Shown piece by piece: positions 4,209 through 12,233 of a stretch of DNA of 64,000 nucleotides. Source of the stretch: Candidatus Nomurabacteria bacterium (lineage in GTDB: Bacteria; Patescibacteriota; Minisyncoccia; Phycocordibacterales; UBA918). The translations under genes and the position numbers were made by a program. The stretch lies in contig JACKGH010000001.1 of the NCBI GenBank assembly GCA_020632075.1, positions 259,216 through 323,215 on the forward strand, written 5' to 3'. The notes beneath the pieces were generated by a model that saw only the letters and a list, made by a program, of their open reading frames with translations, was not told the DNA's origin and searched no databases. The first letter of the stretch is position 1. Every line of letters begins with the position of its first letter.

Positions 4209-5234
4209 ATGATTTCATTTAAACCAAAACAGATTACAAAAGCCCTTTTGGAGGTATTGCCTGAACGAGCACGTGACGTGCTTGAGAAGCGCTACGGCCT
4301 TGGAAAGGACGGTGATACATTCACCCTCGAAGCGATCGGACAGTCGTACGGAATCACCCGTGAACGCGTTCGCCAGATCGAAAACTACGGCATTCAGTCT
4401 ATTCAAAAGTCTGAGGTCTATAAGAAGCACTACGAGCTCTTCATTGAGCTCCAGAAGCTGATCGATCAGCTTGGTGGTGGTCTCATTGCAGAGCAGGTCT
4501 TGCTCGACGAACTGTCTAGCGACGCTGCCACTCGCAACCACTTGTACTTCCTCCTTGTCGTCGGAGATCCGTTCTACAAGAGCAAGGAAAACCCAAACTA
4601 CACACACCGGTGGTACACCGAGCGTAAAGTAGCTGATGTGGTTGAAAAGGCTCTTCAGAATGTCTACAAGAGCCTCAATCGAGACGAACTTGTCTCTGAA
4701 CATGAAATCATCAATCGTTTCCGTGCTGAGCTTGCTGATGTAGCAGATGCTCACAACGAAGACGTGCTCAAGCGTTGGCTCCAGATCTCAAAGCAGATCA
4801 GCAGCAACCCACTCGGCGACTGGGGTCCAGCTGACAGTCCAAATGTTCGCGTTAAGGGTATTCGCGACTACGCCTATCTCGCCGTGAAGCGCCATGGTTC
4901 ACCAATGCACTTCCGTGAGGTAGCCTCAGCTATTAATGAACTCTTTGGGCACAAGGCACACGTTGCTACCACCCATAACGAGCTCATCAAGGATTCTCGT
5001 TTTGTCCTCGTTGGTCGCGGTCTCTACGCACTCACTGAGTGGGGATACACCGCCGGAGTCGTTAAGGACGTACTCCGCGAGATCCTCGCTACCGAAGGTC
5101 CACTCTCTCGAGAGGAGATCATCGATAAGGTCCGCAAGGAACGTTACGTGAAAGACAATACTATTCTCGTAAACCTCCAGGACACCAACCTCTTCAAGAA
5201 ATTGGCAAACGGTACCTACGCACTTGCTGAGTAA
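4209..5234 (+). CDS. DNA-binding protein with N-terminal sigma-70 region 4 HTH and C-terminal HARE-HTH-like winged helix
   Basis: LPERARDVLEKRYGLG...TLEAIGQSYGITRERVRQIE resembles sigma70 r4; C-terminal GSPMHFREVASAINELFG...GRGLYALTEWG. Confidence 0.6.
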   Translation: MISFKPKQITKALLEVLPERARDVLEKRYGLGKDGDTFTLEAIGQSYGITRERVRQIENYGIQSIQKSEVYKKHYELFIELQKLIDQLGGGLIAEQVLLDELSSDAATRNHLYFLLVVGDPFYKSKENPNYTHRWYTERKVADVVEKALQNVYKSLNRDELVSEHEIINRFRAELADVADAHNEDVLKRWLQISKQISSNPLGDWGPADSPNVRVKGIRDYAYLAVKRHGSPMHFREVASAINELFGHKAHVATTHNELIKDSRFVLVGRGLYALTEWGYTAGVVKDVLREILATEGPLSREEIIDKVRKERYVKDNTILVNLQDTNLFKKLANGTYALAE

Positions 5235-5305: not shown

Positions 5306-6652
5306 ATGGGAGGAATCATCAAAACGATATTCGGTGCCATCATGATACCGCTCTTTTTGTTTTTAGCGCTCAGCTTCATGTTCTTTGTCGTGTCCATGAC
5401 CGGCACAGACCTTGAACCGATTCTCAGTATCATCGTTGCCACCAGCCCAATCTGGCTCCCGTACACACTTTTCTACATTACCTTCGAAATGTGGATGTGG
5501 TCTGTCGGTGAGAAATTCAAATACCAAAATGGACGGAGCACCCTCCGCATCAAACTCCCACAGGAAGTACTCAAATCTCCAGAAGCGATGGAAAGTGTTC
5601 TTACCCAGGTACACAACGTCAACAGTCCGGATAACTACATGCAAACATACCTGGACGGCAAGCGACCACTCACACTCAGTCTTGAACTTGTATCGATCGG
5701 TGGTGATGTACGCTTTTACATCAACTGCCCGACCAAGAAGATCAAGAATGCGCTTGAAGCACAGCTCTATGCACAGTATCCAGGAATTGAAGTCACCGAA
5801 GAATTGGTCGACTACGCAGCTGAGGTGGTATGGGATAAAGACAAGTGGGAACTGATCTCTTTCCACATCCTCAAGAAGAGCAAGACCAGAGATGATGATG
5901 TCTTTCCGATCAAAACATATATCGATTACGGTCTCGATAAGCAACCAAAGGAGGAGCTCAAGTTTGAACCAATGGCACCGATCCTCGAACACCTGGGGAG
6001 CGCCAAGCCACATGAGCGTGTCTGGATCCAGATACTCTGTACACCACACGCAAAGAAAACTCTTAAAACAGGTAGTTTAAGCAAGCAAGATACCTGGGAA
6101 AAAAGCGCGGCTAAGAAGATCAATGAAATGATGGGGCGCGATGACAAGCGCATGAGTGTCGCTGGTGAAGAAACTGACACGCGCCCAATGCTCACTATGG
6201 GTGAGCGAGATGTGATCGCATCGATCGAGCGAAATACCAGCAAGTACGCGTATTCGGTGGGCATTCGTGCCATGTACATCACTCAAACAGGCAAATTCAA
6301 TCCTGACATGATAAGTCCGATGCTTCGTGGTTTCGGACAATTCGACATGATCGGACGAGCCAACCTTGGTCCAATGTGGCGCACAGACTTCGACTACAAT
6401 TTCTTCCAAGATTTCACTGGGCAGCGCAAGATCCGCATGAAGCGCAATGAACTCGAGTACTACAAGGCGCGCTACTATACCGAAGGTGACAAAAAGAACC
6501 TGGTTGACCGTGAGCGCATTATGTCGGTAGAGGAGCTGGCAACCATTTACCATATCCCTGGAACCTCAGTTATCACCCCAGGTGTTGGGCGAGTCGAAAA
6601 TACTCGCCGCGAAGCACCAGCCAATCTACCGATCGGCGAGTTGCCAACTTAG
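5306..6652 (+). CDS. hypothetical membrane-anchored protein (2 N-terminal TM helices, about 380 aa soluble domain)
   Basis: ORF with hydrophobic N-terminus; no Walker motifs; TACAAT 9 nt before ATG. Confidence 0.55.
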   Translation: MGGIIKTIFGAIMIPLFLFLALSFMFFVVSMTGTDLEPILSIIVATSPIWLPYTLFYITFEMWMWSVGEKFKYQNGRSTLRIKLPQEVLKSPEAMESVLTQVHNVNSPDNYMQTYLDGKRPLTLSLELVSIGGDVRFYINCPTKKIKNALEAQLYAQYPGIEVTEELVDYAAEVVWDKDKWELISFHILKKSKTRDDDVFPIKTYIDYGLDKQPKEELKFEPMAPILEHLGSAKPHERVWIQILCTPHAKKTLKTGSLSKQDTWEKSAAKKINEMMGRDDKRMSVAGEETDTRPMLTMGERDVIASIERNTSKYAYSVGIRAMYITQTGKFNPDMISPMLRGFGQFDMIGRANLGPMWRTDFDYNFFQDFTGQRKIRMKRNELEYYKARYYTEGDKKNLVDRERIMSVEELATIYHIPGTSVITPGVGRVENTRREAPANLPIGELPT

Positions 6653-9314: not shown

Positions 9315-9527
9315 ATGTCACAAGCTGCAATCAAGTATAGCGTCGCCACCAGCGAACAGATCCAGCAGATTCTCAAGCTCAGCGAGGGAGCTGTCCTGAA
9401 GGTCATCAACGACGAGATCGAGTTGACCGAGGAGGAGGCTCAGATGCTCCTCCAGCATGGCGAAAGCTTCGCTCGTGCCATGCAGGAAGAAGCAAGGCAC
9501 ATGATCCGCAAACTGATCGGCGCGTAA
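9315..9527 (+). CDS. hypothetical small protein (70 aa)
   Basis: AGGAG RBS 8 nt upstream; followed by hairpin plus T-run. Confidence 0.5.
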   Translation: MSQAAIKYSVATSEQIQQILKLSEGAVLKVINDEIELTEEEAQMLLQHGESFARAMQEEARHMIRKLIGA

Positions 9528-9538
9528 CGCAGTATCCA

Positions 9539-9568
9539 ACGGCGACCCACAAGGGCCGCCGTTTTTAA
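9539..9568 (+). terminator. rho-independent terminator
   Basis: cggcgaccc-acaa-gggccgccg then TTTTT. Confidence 0.55.
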
Positions 9569-9594: not shown

Positions 9595-10431
9595 ATGTCA
9601 GTTCTCATCACTAAAGCCGATGGTACTACCGAGTATTTTAAGGTAGAAAAACTGCGCCGTTCACTTCGCCGTGCTGGTGCCAGTCCTGATGAGATAAACG
9701 AGATCATAGCTGATGTCGACAAGACACTTGTCGATGGCATCCGCACTCAAGAGATCTATCGTCACGCCTTTGATCTTCTCCGTCGCAGCAGGCCACCAGC
9801 CGCTGCTCGCTACTCACTCCGGCGCGCACTCTTTAGTCTCGGACCTACCGGCTTTCCATTTGAGTCATTCTTAGCTAGACTCTTTCAACAAGACGGTTAC
9901 ACCACCAAGACTGGCATTACTATTCAAGGCAAGTGCGCACCACACGAGATCGATGTCGCAGCCTATCGAGACGACCACAGTTTTGTGGGAGAAGCTAAAT
10001 TCCACGCGAGGCCAGGAATCAAATCCGATCTGCAGGTTGCCATGTATTCCTACGCACGCCTGCTCGACCTCAAAAATGCGCAGGTCTGCCAAGATGACAC
10101 CTGTGGCATCAAAGAATTCTGGCTCATTACCAACACTAAATTTACGACTACGGCTCAGAACTACGGTAACTGCGTTGGTCTCAAAATGTTGAGTTGGGAT
10201 TATCCAAAGCACGGCAACCTACACGATCGTATCCAGGACACCGGGATCTACCCGATCACTGTCCTACAAAACCTCAATGCTGCTCAAGCTGAAATGCTTA
10301 TCTCACGCGACATCATTCTTTGTCGGGAACTGATCCAAAATGAGCACATTTTAAGACATTTGCACCTCTCAAAACGTAAACATGAGGCGCTAATACAAGA
10401 AGCAAAAGATGTGATGGACGGTCGTGCATAA
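9595..10431 (+). CDS. ATP-cone domain fused to Mrr-like (PD-(D/E)xK) restriction-endonuclease-like domain
   Basis: N-terminus VLITKADGTTEYFKVEKLRRSL resembles NrdR-type ATP-cone; HEIDVAAY...VGEAKF is a D-x(n)-E-x-K nuclease core. Confidence 0.7.
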   Translation: MSVLITKADGTTEYFKVEKLRRSLRRAGASPDEINEIIADVDKTLVDGIRTQEIYRHAFDLLRRSRPPAAARYSLRRALFSLGPTGFPFESFLARLFQQDGYTTKTGITIQGKCAPHEIDVAAYRDDHSFVGEAKFHARPGIKSDLQVAMYSYARLLDLKNAQVCQDDTCGIKEFWLITNTKFTTTAQNYGNCVGLKMLSWDYPKHGNLHDRIQDTGIYPITVLQNLNAAQAEMLISRDIILCRELIQNEHILRHLHLSKRKHEALIQEAKDVMDGRA

Positions 10432-10524: not shown

Positions 10525-11079
10525 ATGGCAGAAGAAACACAGCAAGACGGACAGAAGACCCTCGTGGCATTTGTCGTCGGTCTCCTTATTGGTGGAATGT
10601 TGGTTTGGGCGTTTTCTGGCCCAGACGCAAGCGCACCTGCAACTGACAATACAGGCAGCGACACCGAAGAGACAACTCGCACAGAAGACACTGAAAAGAC
10701 ACCAGAGACCACAAACAATACCGGGAACACAGCGGCTCCGGTAGTGGAAACACCAGTACTTGAAGTTGGTAACGGTGCAGTCAGCGTACCTGACCAGCCA
10801 GCTAGTGCTTCTGTTACGCTTGAGAGCGCTACCTACCCAGTAAGTGAAGGATGGATCGGTGTACGTGAGTACAACAATGACCAGCTCGGATACATCCTTG
10901 GTGTTGTTCGCTTCAGCGAATCACAAGGCCTTGTACCAGAAGAAATTACGCTTCAGCGATCAACCACCGCTGGTAACCGCTACGCGGTCGTGATCTTCAC
11001 TGAAGACGGAGACTTCGACTTCAGCCTCGCGGGCGATGTACAGATCGACCAGATCTTCGACACCTTCATCGCACAGTAA
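10525..11079 (+). CDS. hypothetical secreted/membrane-anchored protein
   Basis: N-terminal TM helix, T/E-rich linker. Confidence 0.55.
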   Translation: MAEETQQDGQKTLVAFVVGLLIGGMLVWAFSGPDASAPATDNTGSDTEETTRTEDTEKTPETTNNTGNTAAPVVETPVLEVGNGAVSVPDQPASASVTLESATYPVSEGWIGVREYNNDQLGYILGVVRFSESQGLVPEEITLQRSTTAGNRYAVVIFTEDGDFDFSLAGDVQIDQIFDTFIAQ

Positions 11080-11948: not shown

Positions 11949-12233
11949 ATGATCGACTTCACTGAACGGGTACGAGCAGTAGTTAAAGCCATTCCTGTAG
12001 GCAAGGTAATGACCTACGCCGAAGTCGCAGCGGTAGCGGGAAATCCCAAAGCCGCCCGGGCGGTCGCCAATATCATGGCGAGGAATTTTGATCCAGAGAT
12101 ACCGTGTCACCGCGTGATACGCTCTGACGGACGCCCGGGCGGTTATAATCGAGGCGGTGAGAAAGTAAAGCAAGCATTACTCGAAGAAGAGAGAGCGTCT
12201 AGCAATTTCCGGCAGGAAAAGGCCGGAAATTGA
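11949..12233 (+). CDS. MGMT-family DNA-binding domain protein (O6-alkylguanine alkyltransferase-like/Atl-like, C-terminal domain only)
   Basis: PCHRVI active-site-like motif, 94 aa; 3 nt after the Cas4-like gene. Confidence 0.65.
   Translation: MIDFTERVRAVVKAIPVGKVMTYAEVAAVAGNPKAARAVANIMARNFDPEIPCHRVIRSDGRPGGYNRGGEKVKQALLEEERASSNFRQEKAGN

What the first reader, a model, noticed from the sequence alone, without database searches (positions are those of the whole stretch)
9595..10431. ATP-cone sensor fused to Mrr-like PD-(D/E)xK nuclease
The N-terminal about 90 aa match the ATP-cone nucleotide-sensing domain known from NrdR and ribonucleotide reductases. The C-terminal half has an Mrr-type restriction endonuclease catalytic core, HEIDVAAY...VGEAKF. 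The architecture suggests a DNA nuclease allosterically gated by ATP/dATP pools, which is a plausible defence or DNA-surveillance effector. It sits 5 kb from a Cas4-like nuclease and far from any R-M methyltransferase.
Basis: partly seen in the sequence, partly recalled or inferred. Interest (0 to 1): 0.55.

Follow-up and report, generated by a model that had tools for sequence, protein, structure and literature searches.

The report
ATP-cone-gated nuclease, conserved core gene
This gene really does encode a nucleotide-sensing ATP-cone fused to a Mrr/AF1548-type nuclease, but it looks like a slowly evolving chromosomal core gene tied to nucleotide and energy economy, not a restriction or anti-phage gene, and nobody has tested its function.

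Summary
ORF 9595-10431 (+, 278 aa) has three parts: an N-terminal ATP-cone (Pfam above threshold; superposes on NrdR/NrdA cones), a PD-(D/E)xK nuclease homologous to the orphan structure AF1548/1Y88 (E 1.8e-35) with invariant E90, D120, E133 and K135, and an AF1548-like C-terminal helical domain.

The window is from a Candidatus Kaiserbacteria (Patescibacteria) genome. The protein is 100% identical to a deposited entry annotated 'ATPase'. The family is large (thousands of sequences) and catalogued, but I found no functional study.

The defence reading is not supported:
- There is no PADLOC hit, no recurrent methyltransferase, no phage or viral-contig relatives, and only 2 of 72,556 plasmids carry a relative.
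- In Patescibacteria the gene sits in a fixed housekeeping backbone (LeuRS...MltG-MnmA-target-...-AlaRS).
- It is more conserved than LeuRS or MnmA in the same genomes.

In Bacteroidota and a Chlamydiota plasmid it is followed by a beta-CASP nuclease. In four of those loci an AMP-phosphorylase-like enzyme and a PRPP-synthase-like enzyme come next. Usp, PPK2, MgtC and P-type ATPases lie nearby.

My best reading is an adenine-nucleotide-gated nuclease for nucleic-acid turnover and salvage. The architecture is near certain; the physiological role is inferred (about 0.45).

The parts
9595..10431 (+). Complete ORF, 278 aa: ATP-cone, then an AF1548/Mrr-type PD-(D/E)xK nuclease, then an AF1548-like C-terminal domain
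   Evidence: ORF list. It is 100% identical to P0001, annotated 'ATPase', Candidatus Kaiserbacteria. AF2 model has pLDDT 93 and pTM 0.88.
9607..9825 (+). ATP-cone domain (aa 5-77), the presumed adenine-nucleotide sensor
   Evidence: Pfam PF03477, E 2.4e-8, above the gathering score. Foldseek matches NrdR/NrdA cones at rmsd 1.6-2.1 A. K7, E13, K19 and T51 align to E. coli NrdA K9, E15, K21 and T55. K7, G10, F15, K19 and T51 are nearly invariant in the family.
9793..9864 (+). Conserved linker (aa 67-90, PPAAARYSLRRALFSLGPTGFPFE) that joins the last cone helices to the first nuclease helix and ends in the invariant E90
   Evidence: Y73, G83, G86, F89 and E90 are invariant, and L75 and P84 nearly invariant, in 28 sequences down to 33% identity.
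9850..10194 (+). PD-(D/E)xK nuclease core (about aa 86-200)
   Evidence: 1y88_A E 1.8e-35. Mrr_cat aa 86-190 is below threshold here but matches 27 of 28 relatives. Secondary structure is alpha-beta-beta-beta-alpha-beta.
9943..9999 (+). Catalytic motif H117-E118-x-D120 ... E133-x-K135
   Evidence: Read directly from the sequence. E118, D120, E133 and K135 are invariant. D120, E133 and K135 align with the AF1548 D38/E51/K53 predicted in PMC1821046 and PMC1874628.
10249..10413 (+). AF1548-like C-terminal helical domain (aa 219-273), presumed nucleic-acid-binding module
   Evidence: Pfam PF22357, E 6.2e-10, above the gathering score. It is covered by the 1Y88 alignment. The model shows helices 229-275. 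The helix-hairpin-helix-like classification is from memory of SCOP and was not tested.
9538..9566 (+). Terminator-like hairpin plus T-run between the upstream 70-aa ORF and the gene, suggesting the gene has its own promoter
   Evidence: RNA fold -20.9 kcal/mol, z -2.35. The simple terminator scan did not call it, so this is weak evidence.

Best explanation
The ORF encodes the Patescibacteria orthologue of a widespread, catalogued but uncharacterised enzyme family. It is a cytoplasmic, metal-dependent PD-(D/E)xK nuclease of the AF1548/Mrr_cat type, and an N-terminal ATP-cone probably switches its activity.

**Proposed mechanism**
1. The cone binds adenine nucleotides (ATP versus dATP, possibly ADP/AMP), as in ribonucleotide reductases and NrdR.
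2. Binding changes the oligomeric state or the pose of the cone. The change is passed through the invariant linker (Y73...G83-P-x-G86-F-P-F89-E90) straight into the first active-site helix.
3. The E90/D120/E133/K135 site cleaves nucleic acid that the C-terminal helical domain holds without sequence specificity.

**Proposed role**
- The enzyme serves the cell's own nucleotide and energy economy. It opens up nucleic acid (the cell's own or imported) for turnover or salvage when the adenylate or dATP signal calls for it. It is not a restriction or anti-phage enzyme.
- In Bacteroidota and Chlamydiota the products would pass to the co-encoded beta-CASP nuclease, then to an AMP-phosphorylase-like enzyme and a PRPP-synthase-like enzyme.
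- In Patescibacteria the gene is a vertically inherited core gene. These organisms are commonly reported to lack de novo nucleotide synthesis (background knowledge, not tested here).

**Shown:** the domains, the conserved residues, the gene contexts and the conservation.

**Inferred:** nucleotide binding, gating and its direction, the substrate, and the physiological role.
For: **Domains and active site**
- The catalytic tetrad and the linker are invariant.
- Cone residues correspond to NrdA nucleotide-binding positions.

**Core-gene behaviour in Patescibacteria**
- The backbone LeuRS, sigma-like, DUF8128, MltG, MnmA, TARGET, c8/MgtC, PDDEXK_1, MGMT-DBD, HD_4, peptidases, AlaRS is kept in about 60 loci at 40-100% identity.
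- Median identity of the target is 70%, against 63% for LeuRS, 64% for MnmA and 51% for MltG in the same 28 genomes.
- At least 599 species genomes carry a relative.

**Not mobile and not defence**
- PADLOC gives nothing significant.
- Phage records give 0 hits and viral contigs 0. Plasmids give 2 of 72,556.

**Functional linkage outside Patescibacteria**
- The target is immediately followed by a beta-CASP/RMMBL nuclease, with overlaps or gaps of at most 18 nt, in 8 of 15 Bacteroidota loci from the genome scan.
- The same pairing appears in L084/85, L091, L092/93, L094, L095 and L096.
- The full four-gene string is target, beta-CASP, thymidine-phosphorylase-family, ribose-phosphate pyrophosphokinase. 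It occurs in Cyclobacterium, Pontibacter and a Criblamydia plasmid. A Saprospiraceae locus has the same genes with MgtC and PPK2 inserted between the target and the beta-CASP gene.
- The phosphorylase's best solved relative is entry 4ga5, E 3.6e-100. From memory this is Thermococcus AMP phosphorylase. It passes the NCBIfam archaeal-type phosphorylase model.
- PPK2, Usp, AAA_28/dNK-like, MgtC and P-type ATPases recur nearby. MgtC is the +1 or +2 gene in 13 Patescibacteria loci.
- Genes annotated MBL fold hydrolase, PRPP synthase and thymidine-phosphorylase-family (bll3115-3117) belong to the core microoxia-induced proteome of Bradyrhizobium (PMC6515984). I did not check their homology to this module.
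Against: - There is no biochemical datum for any member. ATP/dATP binding, nuclease activity and substrate (DNA or RNA) are all inferred.
- The second NrdA phosphate-binding residue (R10) is not conserved here (A8), and H59 is Y55. Ligand preference may therefore differ from RNR cones.
- The 64-kb window contains no beta-CASP, TP-family, PRPP-synthase-like or PPK2 partner (tblastn). The salvage-module argument is therefore transferred from relatives at 40-45% identity.
- Synteny in streamlined Patescibacteria genomes may reflect a frozen gene order rather than a shared function.
- Several Bacteroidota loci lack the beta-CASP partner.
- Strong conservation does not strictly exclude an immune role.
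Confidence: 0.45

Rival explanations
1. It is an anti-phage or abortive-infection effector. The ATP-cone would sense collapse or distortion of the ATP/dATP pool during infection and unleash a non-specific nuclease, much as CARF or SAVED sensor-nuclease effectors do.
For: - The sensor-plus-PD-(D/E)xK layout resembles Can2/Card1/Cdn1.
- Foldseek places the nuclease domain near Cdn1, Can2, MspJI and AspBHI at E of about 3e-3 to 7e-3.
- Three of 28 relatives give weak Card1_endonuc hits.
- One Balneola locus has a type ISP/MmeI-like R-M gene 3.5 kb away on the other strand.
Against: - The only PADLOC hit has E 0.043.
- The gene is absent from phage and viral collections and nearly absent from plasmids.
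- It has a fixed position in a housekeeping backbone across about 60 Patescibacteria genomes.
- It is more conserved than LeuRS or MnmA.
- Recurrent neighbours are metabolic or stress genes, never defence genes or methyltransferases.
Confidence: 0.12
2. It is a DNA-repair or recombination nuclease (structure-specific, resolvase-like) whose activity is tuned to dATP/ATP, that is, to replication status.
For: - In Patescibacteria, a Cas4-like PDDEXK_1 nuclease lies within the next four ORFs downstream in 46 loci, an MGMT DNA-binding-only (Atl-like) protein in 31, and a family-4-like uracil-DNA glycosylase in 9.
- Two of 28 relatives give weak Pfam Hjc hits.
- JGI names some members 'Holliday junction resolvase'.
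- The nuclease-plus-helical-DNA-binding-domain layout recalls XPF/Hef-type nucleases (from memory).
Against: - The repair-gene neighbours are part of a long backbone that also holds tRNA synthetases and peptidases, so linkage may be incidental.
- Outside Patescibacteria no repair genes accompany it. The partners are a beta-CASP nuclease, nucleotide phosphorylase, PRPP synthase, PPK2 and Usp.
Confidence: 0.2
3. It is an ordinary restriction enzyme, either a type II subunit or a type IV Mrr-like modification-dependent enzyme.
For: NCBI names many members 'restriction endonuclease'. The catalytic domain belongs to the Mrr_cat group.
Against: - No methyltransferase recurs in 81 loci or in 13 annotated contexts.
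- No Mrr_N or other modification-reader domain is present. The N-terminus is an ATP-cone.
- Vertical inheritance and high conservation are atypical for R-M genes.
Confidence: 0.03
4. It is a non-catalytic, NrdR-like nucleotide-responsive DNA-binding regulator that uses a dead nuclease fold.
For: The ATP-cone is the sensor of the repressor NrdR (PMC9110341). The C-terminal helical domain could bind DNA.
Against: E90, E118, D120, E133 and K135 are invariant across the family, which argues for retained catalysis. There is no Zn-ribbon or HTH.
Confidence: 0.05

Closest known systems
AF1548 of Archaeoglobus fulgidus (PDB 1Y88), structural-genomics protein of unknown function
   Same: It is homologous over aa 89-276 (E 1.8e-35, 36% identity; Foldseek target-normalised TM 0.80). 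It has the same nuclease core with D-ExK and the same C-terminal helical domain.
   Different: The solved AF1548 chain (199 residues) aligns only from residue 19 onward and shows no ATP-cone. The residue aligned to the invariant E90 is Q. It is also uncharacterised, so it gives no functional transfer.
ATP-cone of ribonucleotide reductases (NrdA/NrdD/NrdB) and of the repressor NrdR
   Same: Same fold (rmsd 1.6-2.1 A over about 81 residues). The Pfam model is passed. Residues equivalent to NrdA K9, E15, K21 and T55 are present. The likely logic of ATP/dATP-dependent switching through oligomerisation is described for NrdR in PMC9110341.
   Different: The output domain is a nuclease, not a reductase or a Zn-ribbon DNA binder. 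The R10 equivalent is not conserved and H59 is Y. Ligand and direction of regulation are unknown.
Mrr / Mrr_cat (PF04471) type IV restriction endonucleases
   Same: The catalytic domain is of the same PD-(D/E)xK subgroup (Steczkiewicz 2012 group 50). Twenty-seven of 28 relatives hit Mrr_cat.
   Different: This protein scores below the Pfam threshold. There is no modification-reading N-terminal domain. The genomic behaviour is that of a core gene, not an R-M gene.
CARF-nuclease effectors Can2/Card1/Cdn1 of type III CRISPR
   Same: A small-nucleotide sensor domain is fused to a PD-(D/E)xK nuclease. The nuclease folds are similar by Foldseek. This family probably works in a similar, ligand-gated way.
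   Different: The sensor is an ATP-cone, not CARF. The ligand is presumably a housekeeping adenine nucleotide, not a cyclic oligoadenylate. There is no CRISPR or defence context.
Archaeal AMP-phosphorylase (pentose bisphosphate) nucleotide-catabolic pathway
   Same: In Bacteroidota and Chlamydiota, relatives are co-operonic with a phosphorylase whose closest solved relative is entry 4ga5 (E 3.6e-100), which from memory is Thermococcus AMP phosphorylase.
   Different: The phosphorylase scores below the AMP_phos equivalog cutoff (480 vs 535 bits). No R15P isomerase or RuBisCO was seen in these loci. None of these partners is in this window.

Membership tests
ATP-cone domain (PF03477) | Matches the curated Pfam model above its gathering score | tested here: met
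   34.8 bits against a 25.8 cutoff, aa 5-77. Twenty-six of 28 relatives also match.
ATP-cone domain (PF03477) | Beta-hairpin plus four-helix fold that superposes on solved cones | tested here: met
   The model has strands at 4-6 and 12-14 and helices at 17-80. Foldseek matches NrdR 9a6n/7p37/9gex at rmsd 1.6-2.1 A over 81-82 residues, probability 1.00.
ATP-cone domain (PF03477) | Conserved nucleotide-contact residues (E. coli NrdA K9, R10, E15, K21, T55, H59; this residue list is from memory) | tested here: inconclusive
   K7, E13, K19 and T51 are present, and K7, K19 and T51 are nearly invariant across the family. R10 is A8 and H59 is Y55.
ATP-cone domain (PF03477) | Binds ATP/dATP | not testable with these tools
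   Needs ITC, DSF or a co-crystal structure.
AF1548-like / Mrr_cat PD-(D/E)xK nucleases | Sequence and fold homology to AF1548 (1Y88) | tested here: met
   phmmer E 1.8e-35. Foldseek E 6.3e-16. AF1548-like_C PF22357 is above threshold.
AF1548-like / Mrr_cat PD-(D/E)xK nucleases | Passes the Pfam Mrr_cat model | tested here: inconclusive
   This protein scores 18.4 bits, below the 21 cutoff. Twenty-seven of 28 relatives hit at E <= 0.01, best 1.6e-9.
AF1548-like / Mrr_cat PD-(D/E)xK nucleases | Intact E...D...(D/E)xK catalytic residues | tested here: met
   E90, D120, E133 and K135 are invariant in 28 sequences. They align to AF1548 D38/E51/K53 (PMC1821046, PMC1874628).
AF1548-like / Mrr_cat PD-(D/E)xK nucleases | Metal-dependent nuclease activity | not testable with these tools
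   No member has been assayed, according to the literature searches.
Restriction-modification systems (type II / type IV Mrr-like) | Linked cognate methyltransferase (type II) or a modification-reader domain (type IV) | tested here: not met
   No methyltransferase cluster recurs in 81 loci. The N-terminus is an ATP-cone.
Restriction-modification systems (type II / type IV Mrr-like) | Patchy, horizontally mobile distribution | tested here: not met
   Synteny is conserved and identity exceeds LeuRS/MnmA. There are 0 phage hits and 2 of 72,556 plasmids carry a relative.
Known anti-phage defence systems (PADLOC-DB 2.0) | Match to a defence-protein model | tested here: not met
   The only hit is PDC-S02, E 0.043, 11 bits.
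NrdR repressors | N-terminal Zn-ribbon followed by an ATP-cone | tested here: not met
   The cone is at the N-terminus. There is no Zn-ribbon and no NCBIfam NrdR hit.

The most novel reading that the evidence does not exclude
The ATP-cone nuclease is the energy- or dATP-sensing gatekeeper of a previously undescribed bacterial pathway. That pathway cannibalises nucleic acid for nucleotides and energy under hypoxia or starvation. Its steps would be: gated endonuclease, then beta-CASP exonuclease, then AMP-phosphorylase-like enzyme, then PRPP-synthase-like enzyme, with PPK2 and Usp alongside. In Patescibacteria the same enzyme would be a core component of their scavenging lifestyle. This would be the first ATP-cone shown to control anything other than ribonucleotide reduction.
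Probability: 0.3. Interest if true: 0.75.

Novelty: new variant of a known kind. Interest (0 to 1): 0.5.

Why it matters
ATP-cones are understood almost only as the master switch of ribonucleotide reductases and of their repressor NrdR. Here the same sensor is hard-wired, through an invariant linker, to a nuclease. The family has thousands of members.

In Patescibacteria the gene is as conserved as aminoacyl-tRNA synthetases. In Bacteroidota and Chlamydiota it heads an operon of nucleic-acid and nucleotide catabolic enzymes.

If the gating is real, it would show how cells couple nucleic-acid degradation to adenylate or dATP status. It would also assign a function to a conserved 'hypothetical' core gene of the candidate phyla radiation, and to the 20-year-old orphan structure AF1548.

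If it is not real, the gene is just one more generically annotated 'restriction endonuclease'.

Tried and rejected
- **Family libraries.** NCBIfam gave no family. PADLOC gave nothing significant.
- **Locus scan.** The search for related loci with the 28-sequence alignment failed for lack of a conserved stretch. A 9-sequence alignment worked.
- **Literature.** Searches for AF1548, 1Y88, 'ATP-cone' with nuclease or restriction endonuclease, 'ATP cone domain-containing protein', and AMP phosphorylase with beta-CASP found no functional study.
- **Inteins.** I tested whether the longer members (P0124, P0158, P0170, P0268) carry inteins, which would mark an essential replication-type gene. They do not. 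The insertions sit in the variable loop around residues 160-173.
- **Module partners in the window.** tblastn found no beta-CASP, TP-family, PRPP-synthase-like, PPK2, MgtC or AAA_28 partner in this window.
- **Classical R-M and NrdR-like regulator readings.** Both are rejected on the membership tests above.
Full report
**1. The observation**

Pfam gives three domains:
- ATP-cone PF03477, aa 5-77, E 2.4e-8, 34.8 bits against a cutoff of 25.8.
- Mrr_cat PF04471, aa 86-190, E 0.0025, 18.4 bits, just below the cutoff of 21.
- AF1548-like_C PF22357, aa 219-273, E 6.2e-10, above its cutoff.

The C-terminal two thirds are clearly homologous to the structural-genomics protein AF1548 (PDB 1Y88, E 1.8e-35, aa 89-276).

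An AlphaFold2 model built on 28 diverse relatives is confident (mean pLDDT 93, pTM 0.88). By Foldseek:
- It matches 1Y88 (E 6e-16, target-normalised TM 0.80).
- Its N-terminal domain matches the ATP-cones of NrdR and E. coli NrdA (rmsd 1.6-2.1 A over 81-82 residues).
- Its nuclease domain weakly matches Cdn1/Can2, MspJI/AspBHI and the R2 restriction-like endonuclease.

The quoted motif HEIDVAAY...VGEAKF is residues 117-124 and 131-136. D120, E133 and K135 align with the D38/E51/K53 predicted as catalytic in AF1548 (PMC1821046; PMC1874628). The PDB chain is offset by 13 residues from that numbering. Steczkiewicz et al. file 1y88 with Mrr_cat (PMC3424549), and 27 of 28 relatives hit Mrr_cat individually. 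'Mrr-like' is therefore fair at the family level.

**2. What it belongs to**

The protein is 100% identical to a deposited Candidatus Kaiserbacteria protein annotated 'ATPase' (P0001). The window is therefore from a Patescibacteria (CPR) genome.

The family is large:
- 3943 sequences at 90% clustering match the single-sequence query, and 6197 match a profile.
- There are 1192 clusters at 50% identity, of which 429 have E < 1e-30. Nearly all of the 150 best listed are 270-290 aa and match over the full length.

Public names are generic: 'ATP cone domain-containing protein', 'restriction endonuclease', 'ATPase', 'Holliday junction resolvase'. I found no functional paper.

Across 28 sequences down to 33% identity:
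- Invariant residues are Y73, G83, G86, F89, E90, G101, G112, E118, D120, E133, K135, R155, D158, N180, W201, P204, P220 and E269.
- K7, G10, F15, K19, S23, G28, T51, C114, H117, T179 and C193 are nearly invariant.

So the catalytic tetrad is intact. Most cone positions that correspond to E. coli NrdA K9, E15, K21 and T55 are kept, while R10 is A8 and H59 is Y55 (the NrdA sequence and its contact list are from memory). The linker joining the cone to the first catalytic helix is one of the most conserved stretches. That is what one expects if the cone controls the active site.

**3. Context in Patescibacteria**

I called ORFs in 81 loci (the window plus 80 from the genome scan) and clustered them. 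About 60 Patescibacteria loci, at 40-100% identity to the target, share one co-directional backbone:

LeuRS, a sigma70_r4/HARE-HTH protein, DUF8128, MltG/YceG, MnmA, TARGET, a 184-aa membrane-anchored protein or MgtC, a Cas4-like PDDEXK_1 nuclease, an MGMT DNA-binding-only protein, sometimes uracil-DNA glycosylase or a YfbR-like HD protein, an HD_4 protein, M16/M3 peptidases, AlaRS (Pfam).

No methyltransferase or defence gene recurs.

In the 28 closest genomes, median identity is 70% for the target. The comparison values are LeuRS 63%, MnmA 64%, MltG 51% and HD_4 58%. In 28 more distant genomes the figures are 44% for the target, 42% for LeuRS and 48% for MnmA. The gene thus behaves as a vertically inherited core gene under strong purifying selection.

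A terminator-like hairpin (9538-9566) separates it from the upstream 70-aa ORF.

**4. Context elsewhere**

In Flavobacteriaceae the gene is preceded by three or four tandem universal stress proteins. A beta-CASP/RMMBL metallo-nuclease follows directly, with gaps of -29 to +18 nt, in 8 of 15 Bacteroidota loci from the scan.

Annotated contigs and plasmids repeat this pattern:
- Cyclobacterium marinum: target, beta-CASP, thymidine-phosphorylase-family (506 aa), PRPP-synthase-like, with PPK2, PFOR and PEP-synthase fragments nearby.
- Saprospiraceae: P-type ATPase, target, MgtC-DUF4010, PPK2, beta-CASP, TP-family, PRPP-synthase-like.
- Sediminibacterium and two metagenomic lineages: target followed by beta-CASP with a 2-nt gap or overlapping it, then PPK2, AAA_28 and Usp.
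- Pontibacter actiniarum plasmid: the same four genes in a row.
- Criblamydia sequanensis (Chlamydiota) plasmid: the same four genes with overlapping stops and starts, flanked by phosphoketolase, glycogen phosphorylase, acetate kinase and a P-type ATPase.

Counting all sources, 16 of 26 non-Patescibacteria loci have the beta-CASP gene within three genes of the target.

The phosphorylase's best solved relative is entry 4ga5 (E 3.6e-100), which from memory is Thermococcus kodakarensis AMP phosphorylase. It passes the NCBIfam archaeal-type phosphorylase models but falls short of the AMP_phos equivalog (480 vs 535 bits).

Genes annotated MBL fold hydrolase, ribose-phosphate pyrophosphokinase and thymidine-phosphorylase-family (bll3115-3117) are adjacent in Bradyrhizobium diazoefficiens and belong to its core microoxia-induced proteome (PMC6515984 Table 2). 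I did not verify that they are orthologues, so this is a lead only.

The family is absent from 50,697 phage records and from the viral-contig scan. It is present in only 2 of 72,556 plasmids.

**5. Most likely mechanism**

Shown:
- The three-domain architecture.
- The intact catalytic residues.
- The conserved cone and linker.
- Core-gene behaviour in Patescibacteria.
- Operon linkage to a second nuclease and to nucleotide-catabolic and energy-stress genes in other phyla.

Inferred:
1. The cone binds adenine nucleotides and, as in RNR and NrdR, changes the oligomeric state or domain pose.
2. This switches the nuclease through the linker that ends in E90.
3. The C-terminal helical domain holds nucleic acid non-specifically.
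4. The fragments feed nucleotide turnover or salvage.

The sign of regulation is unknown. An RNR-like logic (dATP = 'enough', off) would suit a salvage enzyme. I put about 0.45 on this overall reading. The architecture itself is near certain.

**6. Rivals**

- A DNA-repair or structure-specific nuclease (0.2). It draws on the Patescibacteria neighbours (Cas4-like nuclease, Atl-like protein, UDG) and weak Hjc hits. It finds no support outside that phylum.
- A defence or abortive-infection effector (0.12). It draws on the sensor-nuclease layout and the fold resemblance to Can2/Cdn1/MspJI. Distribution, conservation and context all contradict it.
- A classical R-M enzyme (0.03). It fails the membership tests.
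- A dead-nuclease regulator (0.05). It also fails the membership tests.

**7. Novelty and score**

The sequence family and its domain architecture are already in the databases, and this gene is an ordinary member. No function is known, however. An ATP-cone controlling a nuclease would be a new use of a well-studied allosteric module. The cross-phylum four-gene module appears undescribed in the literature I could search.

I rate it a new variant of a known kind (a ligand-gated PD-(D/E)xK nuclease combined with ATP-cone allostery), with interest 0.5.

Noticed in passing
L084 7001-11755; L088 7001-13735; L094 1972-6597; L095 7995-12602: A tightly packed four-gene string is conserved between Bacteroidota and a Chlamydiota plasmid: ATP-cone nuclease, beta-CASP MBL nuclease, archaeal-type thymidine/AMP-phosphorylase-family protein, and PRPP-synthase-like protein. 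In the Saprospiraceae locus L088, MgtC and PPK2 are inserted between the target and the beta-CASP gene. PPK2, Usp, MgtC and P-type ATPases often lie nearby. Similarly annotated genes (bll3115-3117) are microoxia-induced in Bradyrhizobium (PMC6515984).
   Followed up: partly
window 4209-5234 (+): A 341-aa protein with Sigma70_r4 and HARE-HTH domains is the most conserved gene of the syntenic block. Its median identity is 80%, above LeuRS and the target. It looks like an unusual conserved Patescibacteria DNA-binding protein.
   Followed up: no
window 11080/11164-11946 (+) and 11949-12233 (+): A Cas4-like PDDEXK_1 nuclease is followed after 2 nt by a 94-aa ORF consisting only of the MGMT DNA-binding domain (Atl-like). 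Both are conserved downstream of the target in many Patescibacteria loci. The Cas4-like gene is about 0.7 kb from the target, not 5 kb.
   Followed up: partly
window 10525-11079 (+): A 184-aa protein has an N-terminal membrane anchor, an acidic Thr/Glu-rich spacer and a C-terminal domain with no Pfam match. It is the immediate downstream neighbour in 38 Patescibacteria loci. In others an MgtC-family protein occupies this position, sometimes alongside the 184-aa protein.
   Followed up: no
window 5306-6652 (+): A 448-aa DUF8128 protein with N-terminal transmembrane segments is a constant member of the backbone. Its function is unknown.
   Followed up: no
window 9538-9566 (+): A GC-rich hairpin followed by TTTTT lies between the 70-aa ORF (9315-9527) and the target (fold z -2.35). 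The simple terminator scan missed it.
   Followed up: partly
target aa 160-173 (window 10072-10113); proteins P0124, P0158, P0170, P0268, P0196: The loop between the helix at 146-161 and the strand at 174-179 is the only low-confidence part of the model and is where longer relatives carry insertions; these are not inteins. In the close Patescibacteria clade it holds two invariant cysteines, C165 and C170. P0196 has a Lys-rich, histone-H1-like N-terminal extension (below the Pfam threshold).
   Followed up: partly
L059 7537-7947 and equivalents in L049, L052, L073, L079, L081: A protein of about 135 aa with no Pfam match lies immediately upstream of the target in Flavobacteriaceae, between the tandem Usp genes and the target.
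   Followed up: no
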